Shown one piece after another: positions 5,326 through 61,146 of a stretch of DNA of 64,000 nt. A program made the translations under genes and the position numbers. Below the pieces are notes generated by a model that worked only from the letters and a program-made list of their open reading frames with translations, was not told the DNA's origin and did not search any database. This DNA is from Pseudomonadota bacterium (GTDB lineage Bacteria; Pseudomonadota; Alphaproteobacteria; 16-39-46): positions 4,973-68,972 of the forward strand of contig JAFEBT010000002.1 of NCBI GenBank assembly GCA_018242545.1. Direction: 5' to 3'. The number at the start of each line of letters is the position of its first letter. Position 1 is the first letter of the stretch.

Positions 5326-5337
5326 AGGATAAAGATT

Positions 5338-5904
5338 ATGTCGATTCTTTCTGATCATTGGATCCGAGAAATGGCCTTAAACCATGGAATGATTGAACCT
5401 TTTATTGAATCTCAAACAACACGTAATACAATTTCCTTCGGTCTTTCTTCCTATGGGTATGATGCGCGTGTGGCTCCAGAGTTTAAAATTTTTACCAATG
5501 TAGACAATGCTCTTATTGACCCTAAAAATTTTTCTCCAACAAGCTTTGTAGATCGCGAAACAGATGTATGCATCATCCCAGCGAACAGCTTTGTGCTCGC
5601 ACGTACCGTAGAATATTTTCGTATTCCACGGGATGTTCTTGTTATTTGTCTTGGAAAATCCACCTATGCTCGTTGTGGTATTATCGTGAATGTTACACCT
5701 CTTGAGCCTGAATGGGAAGGGCATGTAACTCTTGAGTTTTCCAATACAACGCCTCTTCCTGCAAAAATTTATGCAAATGAAGGCGTCTGTCAATTTCTCT
5801 TTTTTAAAGGAGAACAACCTTGTGATGTTTCTTATAAAGACCGCTCTGGAAAATACATGCATCAACGCGGAATTACGCTTCCAAAATTAAAAACACTTAC
5901 ATAA
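5338..5904 (+). CDS. dcd: dCTP deaminase
   Basis: 188 aa. [14 protein letters not shown]...GYDARV...CQFLFF is a typical Dcd (dUTPase-fold) sequence. Confidence 0.93.
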
Positions 5905-5925
5905 TTTTTTTAAAGGATTTCATTT

Positions 5926-7235: not shown

Positions 7236-7712
7236 ATGACCTTTAAAAATTCAACACCATCAAATACTTCTCTTACTTTCTCTGATGCACCGCCTTTAAA
7301 GCTTAAAGCCGAAAATTTAGAAGATCTTTCAATTCTCTCTACATTTCTTCAAGATGCTCTTGTTCCTTTTTCAAGCATAACATACAACCCAAAAGAGCAA
7401 ACATTTTCTCTTCTCACACATCGTTTTCGCTGGGAAAATAATCCTGTTATTGAAAATGAGAGTACGCTTTATGAACGCATTCATTCCCTCTTAAATATTA
7501 ACCATGTCAAAAACGTCCATAAAAAAGGATTAAAAGATTCCTTTGATCCAAACCAAATTTTAAATCTTTTATGCATTACGTCCGAAGATAATACTCTTAT
7601 TTTAACTTTTTCAGGTGCCATTCAACTTCAACTTGAAATTGAAAAAATGTTCGTTTTACTTGGAGATCAAAATATTTCATGGCCAACTTCCCATAAACCA
7701 GAGCACTTTTAA
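7236..7712 (+). CDS. conserved hypothetical protein (possibly DUF2948; such a gene often follows murA in alphaproteobacteria)
   Basis: 158-aa ORF with coding-like composition immediately downstream of murA. The family assignment is from memory of synteny, not a motif match. Confidence 0.55.
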   Translation: MTFKNSTPSNTSLTFSDAPPLKLKAENLEDLSILSTFLQDALVPFSSITYNPKEQTFSLLTHRFRWENNPVIENESTLYERIHSLLNINHVKNVHKKGLKDSFDPNQILNLLCITSEDNTLILTFSGAIQLQLEIEKMFVLLGDQNISWPTSHKPEHF

Positions 7713-49575: not shown

Positions 49576-50475
49576 CTAATCTTGCACTCTTTTCGGGCTA
49601 TCAACATTTTTATCAAATTGAATGCTAAGAGTTCCGGCAAGAATCACAACAATTCCAATAATTTGGATCCAACTTAACGATTCATGTAATAATAAAACGC
49701 CTATAATTACTGTCACAACAGGCTCTAAAACGGAAACAATAGAGGCTTTCGTCGAGTTAATATATTTTAAACTCATGAGGAGCAAAAAGAGAGGAAAAAC
49801 AGTTGCAATGATACTTACACCAAAAATATTTATCCAAATAAGAGAGGTCGTGGGGATAAAAAAACTATGATTAAAAAGAGAAAGTCCTAAAAAAAGAATC
49901 GCATTTCCGATAGAAATAACAAAAGAAGATAAAATGGGATTAAGATTTTGTGCCTGCTTTTTTGTAATCAGCATATAAAAAGAATAACTTATCCCTGCCA
50001 AAAACGCGAGAAAGATTCCATAAAAATCAAAAGTCATTTGACTGCGATCGCTGAGCAAAAAGATTCCAACCGCCGTTAAAATAAAAGAAATATAATAAAA
50101 AAGCGTAATTTTATAACGGTGAAAAAACCAATTTAAAAGAGCGACAATTGTGGGATAGGTGAAAAAAATCACCATTGCGAGTCCAGTTCCAATGTACTCA
50201 CTTGCAACAAAATAAAGCGCCGCACAGGCCCCATAGAAAAAAGCGCCCCCAAAAGCATAGAGGATTTGGCGTTTATCATATATAACCTCTTGAGCTGGAA
50301 TTAAAATCACTAAAAAAGCAAGTGTTGTTACAAAAAATCGCCAAAACAACATGTTAAAAACAGAAGAATGTCCTTCTGTTATAATCATCATTCCAAAATA
50401 AGCAAGAAACCCATAGAGCATTCCAGAAAGACTGGCGTAAAAGATTCCCTTATGTTGGCTTGATAATAATCTCAT
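49576..50475 (-). CDS. EamA/DMT-family transporter
   Basis: 299 aa with 10 TM segments and an EamA-like duplicated architecture. Confidence 0.8.
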   Translation of the reverse strand: MRLLSSQHKGIFYASLSGMLYGFLAYFGMMIITEGHSSVFNMLFWRFFVTTLAFLVILIPAQEVIYDKRQILYAFGGAFFYGACAALYFVASEYIGTGLAMVIFFTYPTIVALLNWFFHRYKITLFYYISFILTAVGIFLLSDRSQMTFDFYGIFLAFLAGISYSFYMLITKKQAQNLNPILSSFVISIGNAILFLGLSLFNHSFFIPTTSLIWINIFGVSIIATVFPLFLLLMSLKYINSTKASIVSVLEPVVTVIIGVLLLHESLSWIQIIGIVVILAGTLSIQFDKNVDSPKRVQD

Positions 50476-50540
50476 TTTTCTTAACTTTCTAAAAAATCTT
50501 TAATCTTCCAATAAAGAAACTTAAATTTTTTTCTTTTACC

Positions 50541-51623
50541 TCAGTCTCCAAAACAAATTCCAAGCCCACGTGCTGTTGCCATCATTGTTCCATGAATGTT
50601 TACAGCTTGATAATGAGCAATTGCTTCTTCTATAGAAACATCAATCACCTTACGATTTTGCCAGGCAACCATACGATTAAATTTTTGCTCTGCCACGAGA
50701 TCCACAGCATGCACACCAAAGGCAGAAGCAAGAAGCCGGTCTCTAAAGTCTGGTTGCCCTCCTCTTTGCAAATGGCCTAAAACCGTCACACGGGTTTCAG
50801 CTCCTGTAATTTGTGAAATTTTTTCACCGAGATAATGTCCAATTCCTCCATAACGTTCTTTTCCTGTAATGTCATGGATAACAACGGAATCTCCATTCTC
50901 TTTTTTAACAGCCTCCGCAACAATAACAAGTGCAGACCGCTGCCCTCTTTTCTGAAGTTGTTTGATTTTATCAGCAATCACGGACATACGATAGGGGATT
51001 TCCGGAATAAGAATAACATCAGCTCCCCCCGCGATGCCACTAATAAGAGCGATATGACCTGCATCCCGCCCCATGACTTCCAATATCATGACGCGATCAT
51101 GGCTCGCTGCCGTGGGTTGCAAGCGATCTAACGCTTCTGTTGCAACTTGAACGGCCGTCGAAAATCCAATTGAGTTTTCCGTAATACCAAGATCATTATC
51201 AATGGTTTTTGGGATTGCCACAAAATTTATATTTCCTTGGGCAGCAAGTTCAGACAAAATTTTTAAACTTCCATCCCCTCCGACCCCAATTAATGCATCA
51301 ATTTTAAGACTGCGATAGCCTTCAATGATTTCCTGAGATCTATTTAAAAAAGTACCATCTGGCATTGGATAATGGAAAGGATTTCCTTTATTTGTTGTTC
51401 CTAAAATTGTCCCACCCATACGTAACAAGCGATCTTCAAACCCTCTTAATGAAAGGGTTAATGTCTCGTATTCTAAAGGCCTCGCTAAAAGGCCTTGTGT
51501 TCCATTACGAATTCCAAGAACCTCCCATCCATATCCTTGTATGGCCCGATATGTAACTGCACGAATAACAGCATTGAGGCCAGCACAATCACCACCACTT
51601 GTTAAAATTGCAATTCGTTTCAA
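50541..51623 (-). CDS. pfk: 6-phosphofructokinase (PfkA family)
   Basis: N-terminal ILTSGGDCAGLNAVIRAV, the GGDGS motif and MGRDAGH are present. Confidence 0.85.
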   Translation of the reverse strand: MKRIAILTSGGDCAGLNAVIRAVTYRAIQGYGWEVLGIRNGTQGLLARPLEYETLTLSLRGFEDRLLRMGGTILGTTNKGNPFHYPMPDGTFLNRSQEIIEGYRSLKIDALIGVGGDGSLKILSELAAQGNINFVAIPKTIDNDLGITENSIGFSTAVQVATEALDRLQPTAASHDRVMILEVMGRDAGHIALISGIAGGADVILIPEIPYRMSVIADKIKQLQKRGQRSALVIVAEAVKKENGDSVVIHDITGKERYGGIGHYLGEKISQITGAETRVTVLGHLQRGGQPDFRDRLLASAFGVHAVDLVAEQKFNRMVAWQNRKVIDVSIEEAIAHYQAVNIHGTMMATARGLGICFGD

Positions 51624-51915
51624 AACATACTCCTCTTTTCTTTATATATCTCAGTGCTTACTTTGGTCTAAATCCTAAAAACCTTCAAGCCCTTAAAAAC
51701 ACAAAAAAAAGAGAATATTTACTTTTAGACTTATCTTTTAAAAGATTTGTGAAAGTGCATTTGTCTTTATATTTTTTAAACTCTTTTATTATTAAACTGG
51801 TTGCCTTTTTTTAAAAGATCATGATAAATTTTGAAAAGTTATAAGAAGTATATATATCCTTTTTATAAAAACCAAATCTGACATTTTATGACATAAGCTT
51901 TCTTTTCATTTCTTC

Positions 51916-52149
51916 TTGGATCCATTGCACTCAAAGATATCTCAAATGTCCGAAAAACAATGCGACTTACGTCAAAAACTTCTTGATCTACAAACTGAAC
52001 ATCAAGCTTTGGAGTGTTTTATTAAAGAAGAACAAATCAAGCCTTTACCTGATCAACTTCTTCTTCAAAGATACAAACGAAAGAAGCTTCATCTTAAAGA
52101 ACAAATCGTGACTCTTGAGAATGAACTTCTTCCAGATATTATTGCTTAA
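51916..52149 (+). CDS. DUF465 (YdcH-like) small protein
   Basis: 77 aa. The motif LQRYKRKKLHLKEQI fits the DUF465 consensus (LKkrKLaLKDEI). Confidence 0.65.
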   Translation: MDPLHSKISQMSEKQCDLRQKLLDLQTEHQALECFIKEEQIKPLPDQLLLQRYKRKKLHLKEQIVTLENELLPDIIA

Positions 52150-52395
52150 TACTTCTTATATATTTTTTATAGTAAAAAGACGAAACATTCAATAATTCAA
52201 TAGAAATAATCCTTTTCATAAACAGGCCATGAACTCCCCCACCTGAAACAAACCAGACACAATTGCAAATCCCCATGTGTTAGTAAAAAATGCTCAATAT
52301 ATCGATCTTGCGTATCTTAAATTAACTTTTGACAATTTAGTAAATTTATATATATTATACGTTTTTACATTCTTTTTTTACATAAGGAGAAATAA

Positions 52396-52824
52396 ATGTG
52401 GATGAGAACCTATAGTCAGACCTTTCAGAACGTTACAAAAGAAGCCATTTGGGAGCTCTGGACAGATATAAATCAATGGCCAACCTGGCACAATGATCTC
52501 TATTTCTGCACATTCGATGGCCCTTTTGAAGTTGGAAATTATTTTATGTTAAAGCCCAAAGGAATGAGAGCTGTTAAAATTATCCTGACAGAAATCGAAA
52601 AAGGCCATAAATTTACCGATTGTACTTCCTTTTTTGGTGCCAAAATGTATGATACACATGAACTTGAAGAAACGAGCAAAGGGCATCTAAAGCTCACAAA
52701 CACACTCAAAGTCACAGGTCCTCTCAAATGGCTTTGGATTAAATTTGTTGCTCAAAACGTTGCTAATACAGTTCCTGAAGAAATGGAGGCTCTTGTCAAT
52801 CTTGCACGAAAAAAATACCCCTAA
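52396..52824 (+). CDS. SRPBCC-superfamily (polyketide cyclase/AHSA1-like) protein
   Basis: 142 aa. WELWTDINQWPTWHNDL is typical of SRPBCC ligand-binding domains. Confidence 0.55.
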   Translation: MWMRTYSQTFQNVTKEAIWELWTDINQWPTWHNDLYFCTFDGPFEVGNYFMLKPKGMRAVKIILTEIEKGHKFTDCTSFFGAKMYDTHELEETSKGHLKLTNTLKVTGPLKWLWIKFVAQNVANTVPEEMEALVNLARKKYP

Positions 52825-52885
52825 TCTTCCTTTTGGGTTTGAAGAACCTCAAGACAGCCCCGGCTTCCTGCTCTGGCAAACAACA

Positions 52886-53272
52886 ATGACTTGGCAAAGG
52901 CTTATCAAAAAAGAGCTCGAGCCTTTTGGAGTGTCCCACGCACAATTTGTCATTATGGCGCTTCTTCTGTGGTTTAAAGCCCATCACTATGACACAACAC
53001 AAACACTTATTGTAGAATGGTCAAAGCTTGATAAAATGACGGTTTCTAAAGCCCTTAAAAAGCTCGTAGAAGAAAAGCTTGTGGAGCGCTTTGAACATAA
53101 GATCGACACGCGCTCTAAAAGCGTTTTTCTAACCGAAAAAGGAAAAGAGCTTATACATCAACTCGTTCCGCGTGTTGAACATATCGATGAAACTTTTTTT
53201 GAAAAACTTGGTCAAACTCAACCGATTTTTATTCAAACCTTAAAAAAACTTATAAAAGGATCTAACCAATGA
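52886..53272 (+). CDS. MarR-family transcriptional regulator
   Basis: MarR wHTH (LSPAQFVIMALL...TQTLIVEWSKLDKMTVSKALKKLVEEKLVER). The first in-frame ATG after the upstream stop is at 52886; the track ORF from 52745 would overlap the upstream gene by 80 nt. Confidence 0.7.
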   Translation: MTWQRLIKKELEPFGVSHAQFVIMALLLWFKAHHYDTTQTLIVEWSKLDKMTVSKALKKLVEEKLVERFEHKIDTRSKSVFLTEKGKELIHQLVPRVEHIDETFFEKLGQTQPIFIQTLKKLIKGSNQ

Positions 53273-53676
53273 CCAATTCCTCAGAAGTACCCGGCTCTGT
53301 GACTGGATTTTTAAGAATACTCCTTCGATTAGAAGGACTGGCTGTTTTTTGCACGATGTTAATGGCCTATAGGTATTTTGACTATTCTTGGAAAACATTT
53401 TTCTTTTTGTTTTTATTTCCTGATATAAGTTTTACAGGTTATCTTTTTGGAAAAACACCTGGCGCTTTTGCCTATAATACATTTCACTCTTACATCTTTC
53501 CTCTCATTTTAGGAATATTATGTTGGCAATTTGAGCCTCATTTCTTCTATATCCCTCTTATTTGGGGAGCTTACATTGGCTTTGACCGAAGCTTAGGTTT
53601 TGGCCTTAAGTATTCAAAAGGTTTTAAATATACCCATTTAGGAATGATTAAAGGTTGGGAAAAAGGGGGGAAGTAA
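53269..53676 (+). CDS. small integral membrane protein (DUF4260-like)
   Basis: 135 aa with 4 predicted TM segments. Its ATGA start overlaps the MarR stop. Confidence 0.5.
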   Translation: MTNSSEVPGSVTGFLRILLRLEGLAVFCTMLMAYRYFDYSWKTFFFLFLFPDISFTGYLFGKTPGAFAYNTFHSYIFPLILGILCWQFEPHFFYIPLIWGAYIGFDRSLGFGLKYSKGFKYTHLGMIKGWEKGGK

Positions 53677-53684
53677 AAGCACTC

Positions 53685-53850
53685 TTAACTTAATTTGCGC
53701 TGAAATTTTTTATAGACATCACCATCATTCCTTAATCCTATAAGAACAATCTTAAGCATGCCTTTTTTAATTTTATAGGTAATTTTATGCTCCCAACATC
53801 CATAGGATACTATTTCGTATACTCTACAAGAGTTCGAGATAAGCTCAGTA
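53685..53850 (-). pseudogene. C-terminal fragment of a RelE/ParE-family toxin gene (paralog of 55737..56012)
   Basis: Minus-strand translation ...SYGCWEHKITYKIKKGMLKIVLIGLRNDGDVYKKFQRKLS* matches the last ~40 aa of the intact toxin (...EYRIIYKVEKDMIMLVLIGLRNDDNVYKKFQRKLS). About 70 nt are near-identical at DNA level, and no N-terminal half is present. Confidence 0.6.
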
Positions 53851-54034
53851 GATTGTGCTTCTTACTATACTTAAAAAGCTCTTCTTTTTTACCAACTATG
53901 TTTTTTACATAAATAAAAATATCTGCTATATTGAATCTTTAAAAAGAGATTTTCCATTTTACAGATGTAAAAAAAGATTCTATTTTGGATCTGTAAAAAG
54001 TAATTTTACTATTTGTAGATGAAAGAGTACAAAT

Positions 54035-55471
54035 ATGGCAAAGTTTATTGGACGAAAAAGAGAACTAGAAATTCTTCACGGGCTCACTCAAAAAAAGACT
54101 GCGAGTCTTATTGTCATAAAAGGTCGACGCCGCATTGGCAAGAGTCGCCTTATTAAAGAATTTGGAGAGACGCATAAGCCTTATTATATTTTCTCAGGTC
54201 TTCCCCCTACTCCCCAAACAACAAAACAATCACAGATTAATGAATTTGTCAGACAGTTACGAGAATATTTTCGGCTTCCAAATATTCGGTTTAGTGACTG
54301 GGGAGACGTTTTTTATTTCTTAGCAGATAAAGTTAAAACTGGCAAAGTCATCGTTGTATTTGATGAAATTTCTTGGATCGGATCCAAAGATTCAGACTTT
54401 TTGGGAAAATTAAAGAATGCATGGGATCTTCACTTTAAAGAAAATGATAACCTCATTCTAATATTATGTGGGTCGGTCTCTTCCTGGATTGAAAAAAATA
54501 TTTTAAATAGCACAGGATTTGTTGGAAGAACTTCCGCTCCTATTACCATAGGAGAACTTTCTTTAAGCGAATGCAATGAATTTTTTGGATCAAAAGGAAA
54601 ACTTATTTCTGCTTATGAGAAGTTTAAAATTTTAGCAATTACGGGAGGAATTCCTAAATATCTTGAAGAAATTCGACCAGAATTAACAGCAGACCAAAAC
54701 ATAAAGAACCTGTGCTTTATCAAAGAAGGATTTTTATTTAATGAATTTGACCAAATGTTTTCTGACCTCTTTTTAAGCAAAAGCAGCTTTTATAAAAAAG
54801 CTTTAGAACTCTTAGTTAATGGAAATATAGAAGGAACAACTTTATGCAAAGCGATAAAATTTACACAAAATAATACCACATCAGATTATTTGTATGAACT
54901 TATGCAAGCAGGCTTTATAAGTCGAGATTATACCTGGAATTTAGCAACTCAAACGGAAGCTAAATTAAGCCATTATCGACTCAAAGATAACTATACCCGA
55001 TTTTATTTAAAGTATATACTGCCCAATAAAAATAGGATTTCAGATGGCGCTTTTGAATCCAAAGCTTTAAGCAGTTTACCAAATTGGAATACGATAATGG
55101 GCCTTCAATTTGAAAATCTTGTCCTGAATAATCGCAAAAGAATTCAAGAACTTCTTCAAATTTCTCCTGATGAAATTATATGGGACAATCCATTTTTTCA
55201 AAATAAAACATCTAAACAACCAGGCTGTCAAATCGATTATCTAATAAATACAAAGTTTTCAAATCTGTATCTTTGTGAGATTAAATTTTCACAGTCTGAA
55301 ATTAAAAAAGATATCATAGAAGAAATGGAACAAAAAATTAAAAATCTTCAAAAGCCTAAAGGATTTTCTTGTCGTCCTATTTTAATCCATGTTAATGGTG
55401 TCCACGAAGAAGTAAAAGAGTTAGATTATTTTTTTCATATTATAGATTTCAGTGATCTTCTAAAAAAGTAA
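54035..55471 (+). CDS. AAA+ ATPase of the Arch_ATPase/DUF234 family
   Basis: 478 aa. N-terminus FIGRKRELEILHG...LIVIKGRRRIGKSRLIKEF (Walker A) and Walker B VVFDEISW, plus the DUF234-type C-terminal region. Confidence 0.8.
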   Translation: MAKFIGRKRELEILHGLTQKKTASLIVIKGRRRIGKSRLIKEFGETHKPYYIFSGLPPTPQTTKQSQINEFVRQLREYFRLPNIRFSDWGDVFYFLADKVKTGKVIVVFDEISWIGSKDSDFLGKLKNAWDLHFKENDNLILILCGSVSSWIEKNILNSTGFVGRTSAPITIGELSLSECNEFFGSKGKLISAYEKFKILAITGGIPKYLEEIRPELTADQNIKNLCFIKEGFLFNEFDQMFSDLFLSKSSFYKKALELLVNGNIEGTTLCKAIKFTQNNTTSDYLYELMQAGFISRDYTWNLATQTEAKLSHYRLKDNYTRFYLKYILPNKNRISDGAFESKALSSLPNWNTIMGLQFENLVLNNRKRIQELLQISPDEIIWDNPFFQNKTSKQPGCQIDYLINTKFSNLYLCEIKFSQSEIKKDIIEEMEQKIKNLQKPKGFSCRPILIHVNGVHEEVKELDYFFHIIDFSDLLKK

Positions 55472-55736
55472 AAATTATAAGGAGGTTTTTTCTGATTTTG
55501 TTTCTTTAAACATTTTTATGCTGAGCTTCAAAAGTCTTATTGTAAATTTCTTTTTGCAACCTAAATTCTTTCCCATCTTCTAAATAGAAGTGCAACACCT
55601 TGAAGTTTTTTTGAAAGGATAAACACAAAAAGCTATTACAGATGAAAGGATATAAGAAATTAAGTTACGGAGAAAGAGTAAAATGACCACAATTAAAGCT
55701 TATATTCTTCCAAATTCTTTAATAATTGAAAAAATA

Positions 55737-56012
55737 TTAACTTAATTTACGCTGAAATTTTTTATAGACATTATCATCATTTCTTAACCCTATAAGAACA
55801 AGCATAATCATGTCTTTTTCGACTTTGTAAATAATTCGATATTCTCCAGCATCTATACGATAATACTCAGAATATCCTATAAGGGATTTTGAATCATGCG
55901 GATAAGGATCGAACAAAAGCGAAAGAACCTTACGTGCAACCTGCCTATATAGCTTAGCATCTAAAGTTTCCCAAAAATCCAAAGCATCTTTTGTTAAGTT
56001 AAGCTTAAACAT
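55737..56012 (-). CDS. type II toxin, RelE/ParE (YoeB/Txe-like) family
   Basis: 91 aa with a RelE-fold C-terminus (YRIIYKVEKDMIMLVLIGLRNDDNVYKK). Overlaps the upstream antitoxin by 8 nt. Confidence 0.8.
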   Translation of the reverse strand: MFKLNLTKDALDFWETLDAKLYRQVARKVLSLLFDPYPHDSKSLIGYSEYYRIDAGEYRIIYKVEKDMIMLVLIGLRNDDNVYKKFQRKLS

Positions 56013-56253
56013 TAATAAGCTTCTCTATAATTTTTGCGCTTTCTTCTTCTCCAAGATACCCTTTTTTTTCAGCCTGACGTGCACGCATTCCCCAATAGGC
56101 ATCTTCACAGGCTTCTAGACGATTAAGTTCTTCTTTTGAAATCATAACGATTGCCTCATGTCCAGCTTTACTAATGACAACGGGCTCAGATATAGCTATT
56201 GAAAGATATTTTCCAAAATTTGTTTTGGCTTCTGTTGCAGAAACAGTCTTCAT
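56005..56253 (-). CDS. type II antitoxin, Phd/YefM family
   Basis: 82 aa. N-terminus MKTVSATEAKTNFGKYLSIAISEPVVISKAGHEAIVMISKEELNRLE is the canonical YefM pattern. Confidence 0.8.
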   Translation of the reverse strand: MKTVSATEAKTNFGKYLSIAISEPVVISKAGHEAIVMISKEELNRLEACEDAYWGMRARQAEKKGYLGEEESAKIIEKLINV

Positions 56254-56411
56254 TATACCCTCTATTAATCAATTTAGTTATTTTAACCGATTTAATTATA
56301 ATGGTCAATGCCATAAATATTTTTATTGATATCTCTATTTTACCTAAGGTAAAGAAAATAATGATGAAGAAAAAACTTAACTTGAAGTCATTAAAAAACT
56401 TCATCTAGCTT

Positions 56412-56885
56412 CTATGGACGCTCTAAATATGGAAAATCCTCTAAAATCATTGCAATAACTTTTTTTAGATCTTCTTTTTTGTGAATAATTAAAAGAACCG
56501 TATCATCACCTGCAATTGTTCCAAGGATACCATATGTTTTCTGAGTTTTACTTTTAGGAGAATTATAGGAATAGGGAACATATTTTTGATCCAAAAAATA
56601 CGCCAAACTATTTCCATGCCCTGGATATGTATGCAAAACAATAAGTCCAAAATCCGAAACTTGCATATTCAAAACCAACGGAAAATGAGATTGATGAGAA
56701 TCAGTTGCTTTATAAATCCCAGATACTTTAGCGATTTTCAGTTTTTTGAGGCGTCTTGATAAGGTTGCTTGCGGAATCTCATAACCTCTTTCTTTCAAAT
56801 GTTTTTGAAGTTCGCTTTGTTCAAGAATCTCATAGTTTTGAATAATACTAAGAATGTGGCCTTCAAGTGTTCTATCTTCTAACAT
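56412..56885 (-). CDS. argR: arginine repressor
   Basis: 157 aa with an N-terminal wHTH (TQSELQKHLKERGYEIPQATLSRRLKKL) and the C-terminal oligomerisation motif GTIAGDDTVLL. Confidence 0.8.
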   Translation of the reverse strand: MLEDRTLEGHILSIIQNYEILEQSELQKHLKERGYEIPQATLSRRLKKLKIAKVSGIYKATDSHQSHFPLVLNMQVSDFGLIVLHTYPGHGNSLAYFLDQKYVPYSYNSPKSKTQKTYGILGTIAGDDTVLLIIHKKEDLKKVIAMILEDFPYLERP

Positions 56886-56943
56886 CTTTAGCTCCTCAAA
56901 AAGATTTATGGCGTACTTATTATGAAACTATATTCATTTTTTG

Positions 56944-56997
56944 TTGACACAACAAGAGAATACCAATATATTCAAATAATGAATATAATTTGAATAT
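56944..56997 (+). promoter_or_regulatory. sigma70-like promoter (TTGACA-17 nt-TATATT) overlapped by ARG-box-like TGAAT/ATTCA half-site cluster, upstream of the arginine ABC transporter operon and divergent from argR
   Basis: ttgTTGACAcaacaagagaataccaaTATATTcaaataaTGAATataattTGAATAtgg, read directly. The E. coli ARG box consensus is TNTGAATWWWWATTCANW. Confidence 0.45.
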
Positions 56998-57007
56998 GGA
57001 GCCAATT

Positions 57008-57751
57008 ATGAAAAAAGCTTTTACCTGCCTCTTATTCCTTTCGGTTTTAAGTCTTTTGGGATGCAAAGAAGAAAGGTCCAAAAATATACTCACATTTGCT
57101 GTTTCAGGAGATTATCCTCCTTTTGAATATTATCAAGATGGAAAATTAACAGGGTTTGATATTGAACTTGCACAACTCATTGCGAAAGAGCTTGGGAAAG
57201 AAGCAAAATTTGAGGATATGCAATTTAGCACACTTTTAGCTGCGCTTCAGAGCAATACTGTGGATGCAGCCATTTCAACCCTCACAATTACAAAAGACCG
57301 ACAAGAAAATTTTACATTTTCAGATCCCTATTATACGGGAACACTCGTAGCTGTTTATTATAAAGAAAAGCCTATTACAGATCAAAGTCAACTTTCCAAG
57401 AAAAAAATTGGATGTTTACTTGGAGCATCCATGGAAATATGGCTTAAGAAGCATGTACCAGATGCTGAAATTATCTCTATGGATAACAACAATCAGGTTA
57501 TTGAGGCATTAAAAGCAGGCCATGTGGATTTGGCTTTTATGGATAATAGCCAAGGCGCAATTTATAGCAAAAATAATCCCGAGCTTTCTTATACAATTAT
57601 TGCAAAATCCGATGATGGATATGGGATTGCAGTTCAGAAACCTTCGCCTCTTAAAGATGAGATTAATCAGGCTCTCAAAGCTTTAAAAGAAAACGGAGAT
57701 CTCCAAAAATTACAGAAAAAATGGATGGGTAGGACAGAATGGAAAAATTAA
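57008..57751 (+). CDS. polar amino-acid (arginine-type) ABC transporter substrate-binding lipoprotein
   Basis: MKKAFTCLLFLSVLSLLGC (lipobox) followed by an SBP_bac_3 fold. The track ORF begins at a TTG at 56990; the ATG at 57008 is more likely. Confidence 0.85.
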   Translation: MKKAFTCLLFLSVLSLLGCKEERSKNILTFAVSGDYPPFEYYQDGKLTGFDIELAQLIAKELGKEAKFEDMQFSTLLAALQSNTVDAAISTLTITKDRQENFTFSDPYYTGTLVAVYYKEKPITDQSQLSKKKIGCLLGASMEIWLKKHVPDAEIISMDNNNQVIEALKAGHVDLAFMDNSQGAIYSKNNPELSYTIIAKSDDGYGIAVQKPSPLKDEINQALKALKENGDLQKLQKKWMGRTEWKN

Positions 57752-58368
57752 TATCTCATATCCTCTTTATAGGAAGCGGAGTTATTCTAACGCTCCAGCT
57801 TCTTATCGGAGGGTTATCCATGGGCCTTTTGCTCGGAAGCCTTTTCTCAATTCTCCGCTATAAGAGAATTGCAAAGGGTTTGATTAATCACCTTGTTTCA
57901 GTTTTACGTGGAACTCCTGTTATTTTACAACTAAGCTTAATTTATTTTGCCGTACCCGGACTTCTCAATATTAAGCTCAGCATTTTAGAAGCTGGCATCA
58001 TAACATTTGGGTTCAATAGTTCTGCCTACATTGCAGAAATCTTAAGAGCTGGAATTGAAAGCCTTCCAAAAGGGCAGTTTGAAGCCGCTAAAACGCTTCA
58101 AATTCCTTCCTTTTACACTTGGAAAGATATTATTCTTCCCCAAGTTATACGGAATGTTTTCCCCTCTCTTGTTAATGAAGTTATTGCTCTTTTAAAAGAA
58201 ACAGCCCTTATTGCAACCATCGGGGGAATGGATATCCTCAGAAAATCACAAATTTTAGGAGCCGAGCACTTTACGTATTTTATCCCGCTTTGTATTGCGG
58301 GGTGTTATTATTATGCGCTTGTTATTTTAATTGAATATTTTGGAAAGAAGATTGAACAAAGGGGTTAG
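57739..58368 (+). CDS. amino-acid ABC transporter permease (HisM/ArtM-like)
   Basis: 209 aa with 5 TM segments and an EAA-like loop (EAAKTLQIPSFYTWKDIILPQ). Confidence 0.85.
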   Translation: MEKLISHILFIGSGVILTLQLLIGGLSMGLLLGSLFSILRYKRIAKGLINHLVSVLRGTPVILQLSLIYFAVPGLLNIKLSILEAGIITFGFNSSAYIAEILRAGIESLPKGQFEAAKTLQIPSFYTWKDIILPQVIRNVFPSLVNEVIALLKETALIATIGGMDILRKSQILGAEHFTYFIPLCIAGCYYYALVILIEYFGKKIEQRG

Positions 58369-58369
58369 T

Positions 58370-59026
58370 ATGCTTAAAATTCAAAATGTTTGTAAAAAAT
58401 TTGACACATTGGATGTCCTTAAAAACATCACTTTAAACATTCCTGAAAACAAGATTATTGGCCTTGCTGGACCTTCAGGAAGCGGAAAATCAACCCTTCT
58501 TCGGTGTCTGCAAAAATTAGAGACCATCGACTCTGGACTGATTGACTATAAAAAACAAACTGGATTTATGTTTCAAGATTTTCAATTGTTTCCCCATATG
58601 ACAGTTTTACAAAATCTAACCTATGCTCCAGCCTTCCATAAAAAAGATAAAGATCTTCAAGCAGAAGCTCTCACGCTTCTTAAAACACTTGGACTTGAAG
58701 GCAAAGAACATGTCTTTCCAAGCCAACTTTCTGGTGGACAAAAGCAACGCGTTGCGCTCGCACGTAGTCTTATGATGCACCCACAAATTCTTCTATGTGA
58801 TGAGCCCACATCTGGCCTTGATGTTGCAACTGTTCTTGATGTTGTCTCTTTGCTTAAATCAGTTCAAAGTATGGGAGTTACCATGATCATTGCTTCACAC
58901 GATCTTGATTTTTTAACAAAGATCGCAGATCAAATCATTCTCCTAAAGGACGGAGAAATTGTGCTCAATACAAATCTTCATTCTTTAAAAGAAGATCCCA
59001 TTCCCTATTTGAAGAGATATTATTAA
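58370..59026 (+). CDS. amino-acid ABC transporter ATP-binding protein
   Basis: Walker A GPSGSGKST, signature LSGGQKQRVALARS and Walker B LLCDEPTSGLD. The start at MLKIQNV abuts the permease stop. Confidence 0.9.
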   Translation: MLKIQNVCKKFDTLDVLKNITLNIPENKIIGLAGPSGSGKSTLLRCLQKLETIDSGLIDYKKQTGFMFQDFQLFPHMTVLQNLTYAPAFHKKDKDLQAEALTLLKTLGLEGKEHVFPSQLSGGQKQRVALARSLMMHPQILLCDEPTSGLDVATVLDVVSLLKSVQSMGVTMIIASHDLDFLTKIADQIILLKDGEIVLNTNLHSLKEDPIPYLKRYY

Positions 59027-59041
59027 TTAAAAGAAAATTTT

Positions 59042-59334
59042 TTAACCCAACAAGTCTATGAGATTACGATGGCCACTAAGTATACGAACAATTTCTAAAG
59101 GAAATGTTTCAGCTTTATAGATAATAAGGTAGTTATAAATCGGCCAAAATAAGACCGGATACTCCGTTAAGTCTCGACGAACATGTCCCATTTTGGATAA
59201 CAACTGAGCATTTCAAATTTTTCTTGAATAGAGCCAATAACTTTATCAGCTGCTGCTTGATTATCTTCAGCAATAAATTCCCATATCTTTATGAGATCTT
59301 CCCGAGCAAGCTCTGAAATAATATAAGAGGACAT
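59042..59334 (-). pseudogene. ParE-family toxin gene with a -1 frameshift in an A5 run
   Basis: Minus-strand frame 1 gives MSSYIISELAREDLIKIWEFIAEDNQAAADKVIGSIQEKFEMLSCYPKW..* After the run ccaaaa the reading continues in another frame: MGHVRRDLTEYPVLFWPIYNYLIIYKAETFPLEIVRILSGHRNLIDLLG*. Joined, they give a canonical ~97-aa ParE. Confidence 0.6.
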
Positions 59335-59341
59335 ATTATTT

Positions 59342-59629
59342 CTAAACGCTCATTGTTTTATGTCTGTTATCACTCATCTTCTTAATTTCTTCAAAAACTT
59401 GAGGTCCAGAGATGCTTTCTCCATTCTGAAGCTGTCGTAAGCCCGCTTCAATCTCATGATTAAGTTTTTGTATTTGTTGCTGAAAGAGCATATCTCTTTC
59501 CATAAGAAGCCTTATTCCTTCACGGACAACCTCACTGGCAGAGTTATAAAGCCCAGTTTCTATTTTTTTTTGAATAAATTTTTCCAGCGTATTATTTAAT
59601 GAGATATTCATTCGATTTTTTCCTTTCAC
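59342..59629 (-). CDS. ParD/CopG-family antitoxin
   Basis: MNISLNNTLEKFIQKKIETGLYNSASEVVREGIRLLMERD fits the ParD consensus (SASEVVRaGLRLLee). The likely start is the internal Met at 59611. Confidence 0.7.
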   Translation of the reverse strand: MKGKNRMNISLNNTLEKFIQKKIETGLYNSASEVVREGIRLLMERDMLFQQQIQKLNHEIEAGLRQLQNGESISGPQVFEEIKKMSDNRHKTMSV

Positions 59630-60011
59630 TTACAATTTATTTAATATCAAAAATAACAAAAAATGTCAAATATTGTTACAAAAGAATCTTAAACAAGAAT
59701 GCTTCTCTTAGCTTAAAGATGTCTCTAAAGAAAAATAAAATGGCTCTAATTTTAAGACGTCAAAGACCTTACCCATATTTTTCTTCTTTTTATTTTTGCC
59801 AAGTATTACAGAGTAGAAATATTTTTATCAAAGTTCTTGGACTCCTTATTAATTAAGGTAAACTATTTTAATATTGATCTCTTAATGCCTCTCCTTAATC
59901 TCTCCTTAATATAGAATTAAAAGAAGATACATTTTAGCAATCAATTCGATTCATAAGATAGTTCTTTGAGGCTATTGAATTAATTTAAATAAATAAAACA
60001 GGAGGTTTTGT

Positions 60012-60911
60012 ATGTTTAAAAATTTTTTTCGAATATTTTTACTTTTTGGGACAGTACTCTTAATAATATCTCCTGTGAAATCTCTTCATGCGGGTGGGTT
60101 TTGGCGACCATTCATGTGTATTATGTGTGAGGATGAAGATGTTACACCCCATGGACTTAAGCGTCGTCAGAACGTTATAGATGACGAAGACCAGAGGGGC
60201 CAAAAACCTTATTACATGGAGAGGCAGCTCACCGACTTTGAGAGATCTCGAATGAAGCTACCTACATTACATGCCTGTAATCTTGATCCTTCCAAGCTTT
60301 GTTGTGATTGTGCCCTATTTCCTTGCTTAAACAATGATTGGAGCGATTTTGTATGTGAAAGAGGAGATGCTGATGTTGTTCGTATCATGAATATAGAAAT
60401 GAAACGAAAAGATGTGCCGGCTTGGTGGAGAACGAACGTGGATTATAGAGCTGAAACTTTGAATACGTCGGCTGATCGTGAATGTGAAATGCCGTGCATA
60501 TTGGCGTGCTTGCCAATTGCTCTTCTGGAATGTGTGCTCTGTCCAGTGACATGTTATGCGACGTTTCGGTACGAAGCCCGACATCCCATTGCTGCTCCTT
60601 ATGCTCCTTCACTTCATACACCTCTCATCCCGAAGAGCTCGGAGCAGGACGAACCAAGTCTGGCAGGAGGCTCCTATAATGACGACCTTGATGATCGATT
60701 AAGAAGCCAACAGGCATTGAGCAAATGGGCTATGGAGAACGTCAAACACAGTCTGCTTGACCCCGCTGATCGTAATTACCGTGCTCAAATCCTAACAGAG
60801 AGTTCAATTACCTACAAGATGACACGCGCTCAAGCTCAAAAGCTGGTAAGTGACATACAGAACGGCCAAATCTATGGGTTACGTTGTCAACCAAAGGTAT
60901 GGAAGGAATAA
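60012..60911 (+). CDS. secreted cysteine-rich hypothetical protein (299 aa), GC-elevated
   Basis: Signal peptide MFKNFFRIFLLFGTVLLIISPVKSLHA. About 20 Cys in clusters (CIMCED, CCDCALFPC, CEMPCILACLPIALLECVLCPVTC). Local GC is visibly higher (about 45%) than in neighbouring genes (about 35%). Confidence 0.65.
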   Translation: MFKNFFRIFLLFGTVLLIISPVKSLHAGGFWRPFMCIMCEDEDVTPHGLKRRQNVIDDEDQRGQKPYYMERQLTDFERSRMKLPTLHACNLDPSKLCCDCALFPCLNNDWSDFVCERGDADVVRIMNIEMKRKDVPAWWRTNVDYRAETLNTSADRECEMPCILACLPIALLECVLCPVTCYATFRYEARHPIAAPYAPSLHTPLIPKSSEQDEPSLAGGSYNDDLDDRLRSQQALSKWAMENVKHSLLDPADRNYRAQILTESSITYKMTRAQAQKLVSDIQNGQIYGLRCQPKVWKE

Positions 60912-61146
60912 TCTTTAATGAAGCGAAAGAATAACATGAGATCATTCTGGCAAATACGATGGGATGCTGTAAAACTTTTTATAAATTGTATTTTAGCAAT
61001 AATTTTCCTGTGGTATGATCCTAAATGTCAAAAGATAGGGAGAGCTTGAAAATGCCTCTTACACCTCTTAGAGCGAAGAAGATTCTTAAGAAGAATATGA
61101 ATAGAGGAAGTAAGCTATAGGTTTTTGCATATAGCTTTATGAAATT

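What the first reader, a model, noticed from the sequence alone, without database searches (positions are those of the whole stretch)
53685..56253. DUF234 AAA+ ATPase inserted between a RelE-toxin fragment and an intact YefM-RelE pair, flanked by ~70-bp direct repeats
The last ~70 nt of the relE toxin gene (TTAACTTAATTT[A/G]CGCTGAAATTTTTTATAGACAT...CCTATAAGAACAA) occur twice in direct orientation. One copy is the 3' end of the intact toxin gene (55737-55805). The other is a toxin-gene fragment lacking its 5' half (53685-53760, protein-level similarity to ~53805). The 478-aa Arch_ATPase/DUF234 gene sits exactly between them. This looks like a duplication-mediated insertion or recombination footprint that placed an AAA+ ATPase next to a TA addiction module. 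Stand-alone DUF234 ATPases are poorly characterised and frequently occur in defence or mobile islands.
Basis: seen in the sequence. Interest (0 to 1): 0.55.

Follow-up and report, generated by a model that had tools for sequence, protein, structure and literature searches.

The report
Mobile ATPase-nuclease cassette beside toxin-antitoxin pair
A self-contained 1.5-kb gene for an ATPase fused to a DNA-cutting domain (an untested candidate anti-virus gene) sits just behind a toxin-antitoxin pair between two copies of the last ~146 bases of the toxin gene, while a close relative has the undisturbed site; this is ordinary accessory-gene turnover, but the cassette's sharp ends and its own palindromic control sites are worth a follow-up.

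Summary
Window 53685-53835 is a decayed copy of the last ~146 nt of relE (55737-55883): 147 nt, 79% identity, E=1.5e-30, with an in-frame TAG and a 1-nt deletion. A metagenomic relative (L007) has yefM-relE directly next to the DUF4260 gene, so 53831-55736 is extra DNA here.

The insert carries one gene, 54035-55471, 478 aa. Its architecture is AAA+ ATPase_2, winged helix, then a PD-(D/E)xK nuclease that resembles DUF234 but scores below Pfam's threshold. It matches PADLOC's untested candidate defence family PDC-S27 over its full length (E=2e-89).

Homologues 53-95% identical occur in unrelated contexts in Chlamydiae, Rickettsiales, Legionellales and Dependentiae. Shared DNA always runs from the outer edge of upstream palindromes to the stop codon. 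These palindromes overlap promoter-like hexamers and occur in 63 of 75 loci, against 8 of 75 shuffles.

Flanking target duplications of 45-251 nt recur in 7 of 56 loci, against 5 of 203 controls.

TA adjacency is incidental: none of 67 small neighbouring ORFs is RelE or YefM.

The locus is in flux. A second, paralogous cassette 1.5 kb away is intact in L006, a pseudogene in L007 and a 114-nt remnant here.

Verdict: a new member of a known candidate family. Its mobility mechanism is unknown.

The parts
53685..53835 (-). Displaced 3' fragment of relE (pseudogene). It corresponds to the last ~146 nt of the toxin gene including the stop codon. It has an in-frame TAG at 53810-53812 and a 1-nt deletion after 53793. 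It is contiguous with the native downstream flank.
   Evidence: 53671-53749 is 79/79 identical to the empty-site relative L007.
53836..53899 (.). Left spacer of the insert, origin unknown.
   Evidence: No relE homology. The interval searched, 53831-53927, has no relative in any fetched locus or in the rest of the window. That interval has GC 28%.
53901..53946 (+). Distal palindrome-like element (degenerate) marking the left end of the cassette. It overlaps a promoter-like site at 53904-53932 (TTTACA-17-TATATT with TG).
   Evidence: DNA homology to the cassettes in L001-L005 begins at 53928/53941. It aligns with the L003 palindrome at -134..-89. Promoter scan.
53955..54000 (+). Proximal palindrome (CATTTTACAGATGTAAAAAAAGATTCTATTTTGGATCTGTAAAAAG). 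It overlaps a promoter-like site at 53958-53986 (TTTACA-17-TATTTT). Proposed operator for the protein's own winged helix.
54035..55471 (+). 478-aa gene. Residues 1-215 are the AAA+ ATPase_2 domain (Walker A G30-S37, Walker B D110-E111). Residues ~247-316 are a winged helix. Residues ~350-478 are a PD-(D/E)xK nuclease (E360, D401, E415, K417). PADLOC family PDC-S27.
55475..55736 (.). Right spacer of the insert, origin unknown. Homology to other cassettes stops at 55474, 3 nt after the stop codon.
   Evidence: GC 26%.
55737..56012 (-). Intact relE/parE-family toxin gene (91 aa). Its last ~146 nt (55737-55883) form the second copy of the repeat. Homology to L007 ends exactly at the stop codon.
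56005..56253 (-). phd/yefM-family antitoxin gene (82 aa), overlapping relE by 8 nt. A promoter-like site lies at 56308-56280.
   Evidence: 99% aa identity to L007/L008.
52160..52272 (-). Remnant (last ~114 nt) of a second, paralogous cassette of the same family. It is intact in relative L006 and a pseudogene in L007.
   Evidence: Window 49601-52272 aligns without a break to L006 9026-6337, which runs into the L006 ATPase ORF 5008-6450. tblastn.

Best explanation
The region is a 1.9-kb accessory insertion (53831-55736) placed immediately after the stop codon of relE. It is bracketed by two copies of the last ~146 nt of relE. One copy completes the working yefM-relE operon. The other is a decaying fragment left attached to the native downstream DNA.

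The payload is a self-contained cassette of about 1.55 kb (about 53900-55474). It holds two palindromic elements that overlap promoter-like hexamers, followed by one gene for an AAA+ (ATPase_2) / winged-helix / PD-(D/E)xK-nuclease protein. The protein belongs to the untested candidate defence family PDC-S27.

The cassette is a unit of horizontal transfer among mostly intracellular or protist-associated bacteria. The TA pair is only the landing site.

Shown:
- the repeat, the empty site, the domain architecture and the intact catalytic motifs
- the cassette boundaries and the upstream palindromes
- the recurrence of flanking duplications and the turnover at this locus

Inferred:
- The winged helix binds the palindromes and represses the gene's own promoter.
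- On a trigger (foreign DNA or a phage product), ATP-dependent assembly licenses the nuclease to cut DNA, giving defence or abortive infection.
- Insertion happened by illegitimate or one-sided-homology recombination at a staggered break, which duplicated the target.
For: Repeat: 147 nt, 79% identity, E=1.5e-30; only two copies in the window.

Empty site: in L007/L008 one relE maps to both copies, and no ATPase lies between relE and the DUF4260 gene.

Family:
- PADLOC PDC-S27 at E=2.3e-89 over residues 1-460
- ATPase_2 at 62 bits
- more than 7000 homologues

Architecture:
- Invariant GRRRxGKS, DE, E360, D401 and K417, with E415 nearly invariant, in 51 sequences.
- AlphaFold model with pLDDT 89 and H-H-H-beta-beta topology at residues 247-316.
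- Foldseek hits to the ATPase_2 structures 2fna and 2qen, to Orc/Cdc6 and to NLR NB-ARC domains.
- For the C-terminal domain, the best hits are EndoMS/NucS (E=3.8e-4), then MspJI, Can2, Card1 and Cap4 nucleases.
- Among 51 homologues, DUF234 is hit in 20 and HTH_5 in 18.

Literature:
- PDC-S27 is described as an ATPase fused to a PD-(D/E)xK domain, is untested, and is listed among the most prevalent candidate systems (PMC12988326).
- PDC candidates were defined by being embedded in BREX, DISARM or type I RM loci (bioRxiv 10.1101/2024.01.29.577857).
- DUF234 is classed as a PD-(D/E)XK family (PMC3424549).

Mobility:
- The closest homologues (86% aa identity) lie in unrelated contexts. DNA homology to them covers only 53928/53941-55474.
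- Pairs 86-95% identical in nt share only -79..-153 before the ATG to -25..+9 around the stop. The pairs tested (L034/L035, L039/L079, L001/L003) have no translated similarity in their 6-kb flanks.
- ATPase GC is 31.9%, against 38.1 +/- 2.9% for 20 other ORFs.

Operators: palindromes with arms of at least 10 bp occur in 63 of 75 upstream regions. The controls are 8 of 75 dinucleotide shuffles and 3 of 71 regions at -770..-600. The arms differ between loci and mostly between paralogues in one genome, yet stay symmetric. Promoter-like hexamers lie inside them.

Flanking duplications of at least 40 nt occur in 7 of 56 loci, against 5 of 203 shifted controls (Fisher p=0.005). Clear cases are L014 (251 nt of an MFS-gene 3' end) and L076 (105 nt of the nfo 5' end plus the intergenic region).

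Turnover: the second cassette is intact in L006, decayed in L007 and a remnant here.
Against: - No experiment supports defence for PDC-S27.
- The neighbourhoods I surveyed are mostly housekeeping genes with only occasional TA or transposase fragments. Defence-island context is therefore not shown for this subfamily.
- The insert is larger than the cassette: about 70-97 nt extra on the left and 262 nt on the right, of unknown origin. This event was not a clean cassette-only insertion.
- Informative sites favour ((fragment, L007), intact copy) by 12 to 4 (one-sided p=0.04). The fragment's divergence from L007 rises from 0/45 to 13/37 towards the junction. A simple recent target duplication does not predict either pattern.
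- None of the flanking repeats in other loci is above 87% identical, so none looks freshly made.
- Operator binding by the winged helix is inferred, not tested.
- The window protein itself gives no Pfam HTH hit.
Confidence: 0.62

Rival explanations
1. The anatomy is the same but the polarity is reversed. The insertion with its repeats predates the split between the window organism and L007. L007 later lost the insert by homologous recombination between the two relE copies. This recreated a single hybrid relE that is like the intact copy at its 5' end and like the fragment at its 3' end.
For: L007 matches the intact copy where the fragment is most diverged. In columns 144-180 there are 11 changes unique to the fragment and 1 unique to the intact copy. 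L007 matches the fragment over the last 65 columns, where no change is unique to the fragment and about 6 are unique to the intact copy. Informative sites are 12 to 4 for (fragment, L007). 53671-53749 is 79/79 identical to L007, against about 85% for the flank as a whole. Direct repeats 2 kb apart are a classic deletion substrate (established knowledge).
Against: The middle 45 columns are an interleaved mosaic rather than a clean switch. The intact copy's distance to L007 is not significantly different between the 3' repeat (11%) and the rest of the operon (8%). No outgroup retains relE, because L006 has deleted it.
Confidence: 0.25
2. The cassette is primarily a selfish element or addiction module, not host defence. 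Its own DNA-binding ATPase-nuclease drives or stabilises its spread. For example, it might cut at or near target sites or at its palindromes. The long target duplications would then be the footprint of that process.
For: - The ends are sharp and reproducible, at the outer palindrome edge and at the stop codon, in unrelated contexts.
- Flanking duplications are enriched.
- Several divergent copies occur in single genomes.
- The nuclease domain's best structural match is EndoMS/NucS, which acts on distorted DNA.
- The cassette spreads across phyla that share an intracellular niche.
- PDC genes were defined by being found inserted inside other systems.
Against: - There are no terminal repeats. 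The ORF 3' end carries no operator-like site (rank-p 0.47).
- No transposase or integrase domain was found.
- Copies within one genome are under 78% identical in nt, so there has been no recent burst.
- In the window and in L014 and L076, extra non-cassette DNA lies between the cassette and the duplicated target, and the polarity is inconsistent.
- None of the repeats is near-identical.
Confidence: 0.12
3. The ancestor had two tandem yefM-relE modules. The ATPase gene replaced the antitoxin and the 5' half of the toxin of one module, and the orphaned toxin then decayed.
For: There is weak, eye-level protein resemblance upstream of 53835. TA modules do duplicate (established knowledge).
Against: Beyond 53835, identity to relE is at random level (22-23 of 60 and 30-31 of 83 columns). 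The reconstructed full-length pseudo-protein gives no Pfam hit even at E<=10. There is no yefM remnant in the region. L007 has a single module, and both flanks map onto it.
Confidence: 0.03

Closest known systems
PADLOC phage-defence candidate PDC-S27 (Payne et al., bioRxiv 10.1101/2024.01.29.577857; surveyed in PMC12988326)
   Same: Full-length HMM match (E=2.3e-89). Single-gene system with an ATPase fused to a PD-(D/E)xK domain. Found inserted next to or inside other conflict loci, here a RelE-type TA pair.
   Different: The family is untested. Its upstream palindromic promoter-operators, its fixed cassette ends and its flanking target duplications are not mentioned in the passages of the two papers I checked with term searches. 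This subfamily sits mostly among housekeeping genes of intracellular bacteria rather than in defence islands.
Archaeal ATPase_2 / DUF234 proteins (COG1672; structures SSO1545 2fna and PAB2304 2qen)
   Same: Pfam ATPase_2 above threshold. Among the top Foldseek hits, with TM 0.61-0.64 normalised to the target. Same AAA+ plus winged-helix core. DUF234 is classed as PD-(D/E)XK (PMC3424549).
   Different: The C-terminal nuclease scores below Pfam's DUF234 cut-off (14.5-16.3 against 22.5 bits). There is no sequence hit to any PDB chain.
Orc1/Cdc6 initiators and their origin-recognition boxes
   Same: An AAA+ domain plus a winged helix that binds repeated, partly symmetric DNA elements placed next to its own gene. 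Foldseek gives E of 1e-8 to 1e-6.
   Different: There is no nuclease in Orc1/Cdc6. Nothing here suggests an origin. The palindromes overlap promoter hexamers, which suggests autoregulation. The analogy is one of working principle only.
STAND NTPase defence proteins with nuclease effectors (Avs-like; the nSTAND clades of Kaur et al. 2020, cited from my own knowledge)
   Same: An NTPase switch joined to a PD-(D/E)xK effector. Weak nSTAND6 Pfam hits in 37 of 51 homologues. NLR NB-ARC domains top the Foldseek list.
   Different: There is no repeat-type sensor domain. The protein is much smaller (478 aa). The hits are below threshold, so membership is not established.
Genomic islands that integrate into the 3' end of a gene and carry a surrogate 3' end (tRNA/tmRNA-type attB duplication); homology-facilitated illegitimate recombination (both cited from my own knowledge)
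   Same: An intact target gene abuts the insert, and a displaced 3' fragment lies at the far end as an imperfect direct repeat. The repeats are 75-87% identical, as expected if one copy is imported.
   Different: There is no integrase in the insert. The target is a protein-coding gene end with no conserved core. The duplicated targets in other loci differ in kind: an MFS gene 3' end and an nfo 5' end.
Integron gene cassettes and pdif modules
   Same: Small promoter-bearing modules of one or a few genes with fixed ends, one of them at a palindromic site. TA and defence cargo is common.
   Different: There is no integron integrase. There is a palindrome at only one end, and it is present in 2-4 copies that carry promoter hexamers. 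The arm sequences differ from locus to locus, so a common host recombinase site is unlikely. attC structure was not formally tested.

Membership tests
PADLOC PDC-S27 | Match to the family HMM over most of its length | tested here: met
   PDLC04984, E=2.3e-89, 298 bits; protein residues 1-460 against profile positions 1-458 of 474.
PADLOC PDC-S27 | Single gene encoding an ATPase fused to a PD-(D/E)xK domain | tested here: met
   ATPase_2 over residues 4-213. Conserved E360, D401 and K417, with E415 nearly invariant. The C-terminal model matches EndoMS and other PD-(D/E)xK nucleases.
PADLOC PDC-S27 | Embedded in or next to known defence systems | tested here: inconclusive
   Here it is next to a RelE/YefM pair. 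Of 67 small ORFs adjacent to homologues in 45 loci, only 2 are TA-type (AbiEii, PIN) and 4 are transposase fragments. The larger neighbours look mostly housekeeping but were read by eye only.
PADLOC PDC-S27 | Protects against phage | not testable with these tools
   The family is listed among untested candidates.
Pfam ATPase_2 (PF01637) | Score above the gathering threshold, with P-loop motifs present | tested here: met
   62 bits against 33.2, covering the whole profile 1-225. GRRRIGKS and DE are invariant in the family alignment.
Pfam DUF234 (PF03008) | Score above the gathering threshold of 22.5 bits | tested here: not met
   14.5-16.3 bits (E=0.013-0.049) at residues 324-420, covering profile positions 1-91 of 100. 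20 of 51 homologues hit at E<0.1, best 1.1e-4. It is DUF234-like, not a threshold member.
PD-(D/E)xK nuclease superfamily | Alpha-beta-beta-beta-alpha-beta core carrying the E...D...(D/E)xK motif | tested here: met
   Predicted order is H-E-E-E-H-E, with pLDDT 85. Motif residues are Q358-F-E360, I-D401-Y and C-E415-I-K417. Foldseek top hits are 5gkj (EndoMS), 2vld, Cdn1, MspJI, Can2 and Cap4. TM-scores are modest, 0.44-0.51.
PD-(D/E)xK nuclease superfamily | Metal-dependent nucleic-acid cleavage | not testable with these tools
   Needs biochemistry.
Type II toxin-antitoxin RelE/ParE with Phd/YefM | Small antitoxin gene followed by an overlapping small toxin gene, both matching the family models | tested here: met
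   PhdYeFM_antitox at 47.1 against 29.8 bits. ParE_toxin at 28.1 against 23 bits. TIGR02385 RelE_StbE at 25.5, just under its 27.9 cut-off. The genes overlap by 8 nt.
Transposon / insertion sequence | A transposase, terminal inverted repeats and short target duplications of fixed length | tested here: not met
   No transposase domain. No operator-like or inverted repeat at the 3' end. The duplications are long (45-251 nt) and variable.
Integrase-mediated genomic island with a surrogate gene end | A tyrosine or serine recombinase within the element, and a short identical core at both junctions | tested here: not met
   The only gene in the 1.9-kb insert is the ATPase. The nearest tRNA is about 50 kb away.
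STAND NTPases (nSTAND6) | A match to the NTPase clade model, and a sensor repeat domain | tested here: inconclusive
   nSTAND6 is hit in 37 of 51 homologues at E<0.1, best 3.7e-4. NB-ARC structures are the top Foldseek hits. There is no repeat domain in the 478 aa.

The most novel reading that the evidence does not exclude
The PDC-S27-type gene, together with its upstream palindromes, is a previously unrecognised kind of single-gene mobile cassette. It carries a promoter that it regulates itself. It moves between unrelated genomes and phyla with fixed ends, at the outer palindrome edge and at the stop codon. It leaves long (about 50-250 bp), imperfect duplications of the target. Its own winged-helix/ATPase/structure-sensitive nuclease may take part in the process.
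Probability: 0.15. Interest if true: 0.75.

Novelty: new member of a known kind. Interest (0 to 1): 0.45.

Why it matters
PDC-S27 is reported among the most prevalent candidate immune genes of bacteria and archaea, yet nothing is known about how it is controlled, what it senses or how it spreads (PMC12988326).

This locus, with its relatives, gives concrete and testable anatomy:
- a filled site and an empty site
- a defined cassette of about 1.55 kb
- locus-specific palindromes over the promoter, which predict autorepression by the protein's own winged helix
- intact ATPase and nuclease motifs that can be mutated

The analysis also shows the gene being gained, lost and replaced within about 2 kb in three close relatives. 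It shows the gene shared at 53-95% identity among Chlamydiae, Rickettsiales, Legionellales and Dependentiae. This is one more sign of a common gene pool among bacteria that live inside protists.

If the fixed ends and the long target duplications reflect a dedicated mechanism, this would be a new route of gene mobility.

Tried and rejected
1. Full-length relE pseudogene or tandem TA duplication. Identity beyond 53835 is random, and the reconstructed pseudo-protein gives no Pfam hit at E<=10.
2. Right spacer as a remnant of an inverted ATPase N-terminus. There is only a 17-nt perfect inverted match (54150-54166 / 55709-55725). The local alignment score of 39 equals the maximum of 200 shuffles, and there is no colinear extension.
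3. Origin of the two spacers. blastn and tblastx against all 88 loci and the rest of the window gave nothing below E=0.05.
4. Terminal repeats or an operator copy at the 3' end of the cassette. None found.
5. TA genes as habitual neighbours. No RelE/ParE or Phd/YefM among 67 adjacent small ORFs.
6. Sequence relatives in the PDB. None for the whole protein or for a C-terminal profile.
7. NCBIfam. No model matches the ATPase.
8. Known RNA families and tRNA targets. No Rfam match in 51500-57000 at E<=0.1. The only tRNA is at 4081-4155.
9. More examples of the filled site. A metagenome scan with a 21-mer shared by both relE copies found only the L007 contig again. An exact look-up of the window ATPase found no contig on record.
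10. Phage carriage. Only 8 distant hits of at most 31% identity in 50,697 phage records. On plasmids there were 153 records, all under 60% identity, mostly non-mobilizable megaplasmids.
11. Literature searches for PF01637, Arch_ATPase and COG1672 returned only noise.
12. The integron-cassette idea was considered. It was set aside for lack of an integrase, the locus-specific arm sequences, and multiple promoter-bearing palindromes. attC structure was not formally modelled.


Full report
**Source and setting.** The window comes from a metagenome-assembled genome labelled 'Proteobacteria bacterium' (proteins MBS0184869-MBS0184891, locus-tag prefix JSS34, 73.8-kb contig). Its GC content is 36%. 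The gene order around the finding is:
- pfk
- a DUF465 gene (51916-52149)
- an SRPBCC gene (52396-52824)
- marR (to 53272)
- a DUF4260 gene (53269-53676)
- [the finding]
- argR (56412-56885, minus strand)
- an amino-acid ABC transporter

**1.
- The repeat finder reports a 100-nt direct repeat at 85% identity, 53685-53784 / 55737-55836. It is far longer than any other repeat in the region.
- blastn extends it to 147 columns at 78.9% identity (53685-53830 / 55737-55883). E is 1.5e-30 against the whole window, and there are no further copies.
- The right-hand copy is the 3' end of an intact 91-aa RelE/ParE-family toxin gene (55737-56012). This gene overlaps by 8 nt an 82-aa Phd/YefM antitoxin gene (56005-56253).
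- The left-hand copy is a fragment. RelE residues 57-91 align to 53792-53688 (E=2.7e-12). Homology continues to about 53835, with an in-frame TAG (53810-53812) and a 1-nt deletion after 53793. Beyond that point it falls to random level.
- A reconstructed 'full-length' pseudo-protein matches no Pfam family even at E<=10, so only the last ~146 nt are duplicated.
- The 478-aa ORF 54035-55471 lies between the copies.

**2. Relatives show that the ATPase is accessory DNA at this site.** Exact-protein look-ups retrieved two kinds of orthologous locus.

L007/L008 (metagenome contigs, 85-91% nt identity):
- Window 52396-53830 aligns to L007 3580-2145, and window 55737-56318 aligns to L007 2291-1702.
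- One relE in L007 therefore corresponds to both copies in the window, and nothing lies between relE and the DUF4260 gene.
- This is the empty site. The extra DNA in the window is 53831-55736.

L006 ('Alphaproteobacteria bacterium 16-39-46', GCA_002257235.1, about 78% nt identity):
- It keeps argR, yefM, the DUF4260 gene and marR.
- It has deleted relE (the equivalent of window 53664-55972 is missing).
- It has no ATPase at this site.

**3. Which lineage changed cannot be settled.** I compared three sequences over 152 columns: the fragment A, the intact 3' end B, and L007.
- Unique changes number 21 in A, 12 in B and 4 in L007.
- Informative sites group A with L007 by 12 to 4 (one-sided binomial p=0.04).
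- A's distance to L007 climbs from 0/45 next to the stop codon to 13/37 at the junction. 53671-53749 is 79/79 identical to L007, while the flank averages 85%.
- Reading one: B's 3' end came in with the insert, by a one-sided-homology or Campbell-type event.
- Reading two: the insertion is older than the split, and L007 lost it by recombination between the repeats, becoming B-like at its 5' end and A-like at its 3' end.
- I rank the first slightly higher but cannot decide between them. In both cases the ATPase is an insertion relative to the single-relE state.

**4. What the gene encodes.**
- Pfam gives ATPase_2 (PF01637) over residues 4-213 (62 bits against a cut-off of 33.2), plus generic AAA models.
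- PADLOC gives a full-length match to candidate system PDC-S27 (E=2.3e-89).
- NCBIfam has no matching model.
- An alignment of 51 homologues has these invariant residues: G30-R-R-R-x-G-K36, D110-E111, and in the C-terminal third Q358-F-E360, D401-Y and K417. E415 is nearly invariant. This is the E...D...ExK signature of PD-(D/E)xK nucleases.
- DUF234 (PF03008) is hit below threshold at residues 324-420 (14.5-16.3 bits against 22.5). The same position is hit in the 44%-identical paralogue of L006, and 20 of 51 homologues hit it at E<0.1. ArsR-type HTH_5 is hit in 18 of 51.
- The AlphaFold model (pLDDT 89, pTM 0.85) has an AAA+ core, a helical lid, an H-H-H-beta-beta unit at 247-316 (winged-helix topology) and an alpha/beta C-terminal domain.
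- Foldseek places the N-terminal two-thirds with NLR NB-ARC modules, the archaeal ATPase_2 proteins 2fna and 2qen, and Orc1/Cdc6.
- A separate model of residues 338-478 (pLDDT 85) matches EndoMS/NucS best (E=3.8e-4), followed by MspJI, Can2, Card1, Cap4, McrC and Cas4-like nucleases. All of these belong to the PD-(D/E)xK superfamily (per PMC3424549 and my own knowledge of these structures).
- The literature agrees on the architecture. PDC-S27 is 'an ATPase domain fused to a PD-(D/E)-X-K member', is abundant, and is experimentally untested (PMC12988326). The PDC set was defined by genes found embedded in BREX, DISARM or type I RM loci (bioRxiv 10.1101/2024.01.29.577857). DUF234/COG1672 is classed as PD-(D/E)XK (PMC3424549).

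**5. The gene travels as a discrete cassette.**
- More than 7000 homologues were found. The top 120 are 56-100% identical over the full length and come from Alpha- and Gammaproteobacteria, Verrucomicrobia, Rickettsia and Midichloriaceae.
- In one-genome-per-species contigs, the best 79 loci (52-69% aa identity) include at least 18 from Chlamydiae. Others come from Finniella, Midichloriaceae, Paracaedibacteraceae, Wolbachia, Coxiella, Legionellales, Francisellaceae and Dependentiae. Eight genomes contribute two or three copies.
- The closest relatives (86% aa identity) lie between unrelated genes (acetyltransferases; Fic proteins). They share DNA with the window only from 53928/53941 to 55474, which is about 100 nt upstream through 3 nt past the stop codon.
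- The same holds for other pairs. Cassettes 86-95% identical in nt (L034/L035, L031/L034, L019/L050, L039/L079, L001/L003) align only from -79..-153 before the ATG to -25..+9 around the stop.
- For the pairs inspected base by base, the left limit sits at the outer edge of the distal palindrome (L019/L050, L039/L079), and the right limit sits at the stop codon for most pairs.
- tblastx finds no similarity in their 6-kb flanks for L034/L035, L039/L079 and L001/L003.
- ATPase GC (31.9%) is below all 20 other long ORFs of the window (38.1 +/- 2.9%).
- On phages the family is rare and distant. On plasmids it is present but distant.

**6. Upstream palindromes.**
- Nearly every cassette has, within about 170 nt upstream of the ATG, one to four imperfect palindromes of 32-46 nt. 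They are often about 55 nt apart.
- Arms of at least 10 bp occur in 63 of 75 loci. The controls are 8 of 75 dinucleotide-preserving shuffles and 3 of 71 regions at -770..-600 in the same loci.
- Arm sequences differ between loci, and mostly between paralogues in one genome, yet remain symmetric. Examples are TACTAATAAT...ATTATTAGTA, ATCACCAAAT...ATTTGGTGAT and GGATCAATAAAAAG...CTTTATTGATCC.
- The centre often reads TTGACA or TTTACA, with a -10-like hexamer 17 nt downstream.
- In the window, the two promoter-like sites on the + strand upstream of the gene (53904-53932 and 53958-53986) fall inside the two palindromic elements. The scan as a whole is not above chance in this AT-rich DNA.
- My reading, which is an inference, is that each protein represses its own promoter through its winged helix, with locus-specific operators that insulate paralogues.
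- No such site occurs at the 3' end of the ORF, so these are not transposon-like terminal repeats.

**7. Flanking duplications recur.**
- In 56 loci with enough flank, 7 have direct repeats of at least 40 nt bracketing the gene. Only 5 of 203 shifted control positions do (Fisher p=0.005).
- In L014 the last 251 nt of an MFS-transporter gene are duplicated at 82% identity, with the intact gene on one side and a fragment carrying a stop codon on the other.
- In L076, 105 nt comprising the first 50 nt of nfo and the upstream intergenic DNA are duplicated at 86% identity.
- In these two loci and in the window, one junction lies at or within a few nt of a gene's stop codon, and the other lies 50-251 nt inside the neighbouring gene.
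- The cassette's orientation relative to these junctions is not constant, and extra non-cassette DNA (17-400 nt) separates the cassette from the target copies.
- No repeat exceeds 87% identity. This fits import of one copy, or old events, better than fresh staggered-cut duplications.
- I therefore commit only to illegitimate or one-sided-homology recombination with target duplication. A dedicated mechanism remains the less likely, more novel reading.

**8. The TA pair is a landing site, not a partner.**
- Among 67 small ORFs (60-150 aa) within 1.2 kb of homologous cassettes in 45 loci, none is RelE/ParE or Phd/YefM.
- Two are TA-type (AbiEii, PIN), and four are transposase fragments.
- The TA pair itself is resident. 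It is present in L007/L008, and yefM is present in L006.

**9. Turnover at the locus.**
- A second cassette of the same family (44% aa identity) sits between the SRPBCC and DUF465 genes in L006 (5008-6450).
- L007 has it truncated at the 5' end and frameshifted (3576-4068).
- The window keeps only its last ~114 nt (52160-52272, minus strand).
- L006 also carries an AAA_14+DUF4143 ATPase gene between uvrD and prmA, which are directly adjacent in the window.
- So three close relatives differ in three ATPase-type accessory genes and in relE, all within a few kb.

**Verdict.**
- The gene is a new member of a known but uncharacterised candidate defence family.
- The insertion itself is ordinary accessory-gene flux.
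- What goes beyond the ordinary is the family-wide anatomy uncovered on the way: fixed cassette ends, palindromes over the promoter, and recurrent long target duplications. The passages of the two PDC-S27 papers I checked with term searches do not mention these, and literature searches on the Pfam and COG names found nothing relevant.
- Defence function and autoregulation are inferences, and the mobility mechanism is unknown.

Noticed in passing
window 52160-52272 (-); L006 5008-6450; L007 3576-4068: Remnant of a second, paralogous ATPase_2/PD-(D/E)xK cassette (44% aa identity to the one in the finding) between the SRPBCC and DUF465 genes. It is intact in L006. In L007 it is truncated at the 5' end and frameshifted. 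In the window only the last ~114 nt are left.
   Followed up: yes
L009-L087 and window 53901-54000: Across the family, 32-46-nt palindromes lie upstream of the ATPase ORF, in 1-4 copies that are often ~55 nt apart. The arms are locus-specific but symmetric, and the centres look like -35 boxes. They occur in 63 of 75 loci, against 8 of 75 shuffles.
   Followed up: partly
L014 5184-5434 / 7451-7701; L076 5480-5584 / 7465-7569; also L020, L030, L036, L051, L075: Other genomes also have 45-251-nt imperfect direct repeats of target sequence bracketing the homologous ATPase gene. They occur in 7 of 56 loci, against 5 of 203 shifted controls. None is more than 87% identical.
   Followed up: partly
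L006 12176-13363, compared with window 45580/45582: Relative L006 has an AAA_14 + DUF4143 ATPase gene inserted between uvrD and prmA. In the window these two genes are directly adjacent. This is another solitary ATPase-type accessory gene in the same clade.
   Followed up: no
L006 3228-3510, compared with window 53664-55972: L006 has lost relE. Only its first ~40 nt remain. The orphan yefM now abuts a slightly shortened DUF4260 gene.
   Followed up: partly
L007/L088 1-1700, compared with window 56319-61144: In L007, the DNA upstream of yefM joins sequence homologous to window 61145-61860 (90% identity). The ~4.8 kb with argR and the amino-acid ABC transporter is therefore absent or elsewhere in that relative.
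   Followed up: no
window 54150-54166 and 55709-55725: A 17-nt perfect inverted match between the ATPase coding region (codons for LIKEFG) and the right spacer just before the relE stop codon. Its score equals the maximum of 200 shuffles. It is unexplained and may be microhomology from the insertion event or chance.
   Followed up: partly
window 53671-53749: A run of 79 nt identical to L007 spans the end of the DUF4260 gene, the intergenic DNA and the relE fragment's 3' end, while the surrounding flank is ~85% identical. It could reflect a shared 3' UTR or terminator function for the convergent genes, or recent recombination.
   Followed up: no
L023, L024, L051, L061: In Parachlamydiaceae the cassette is followed by a conserved metallophosphoesterase gene, and DNA homology extends 500-800 nt downstream. 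There the cassette appears to be vertically inherited at one site, unlike in most other pairs.
   Followed up: no
window 52745-53272: The longest marR ORF (175 aa, TTG start) overlaps the SRPBCC gene by 80 nt. The L006 orthologue is called at 155 aa, so the true start is probably further downstream.
   Followed up: no
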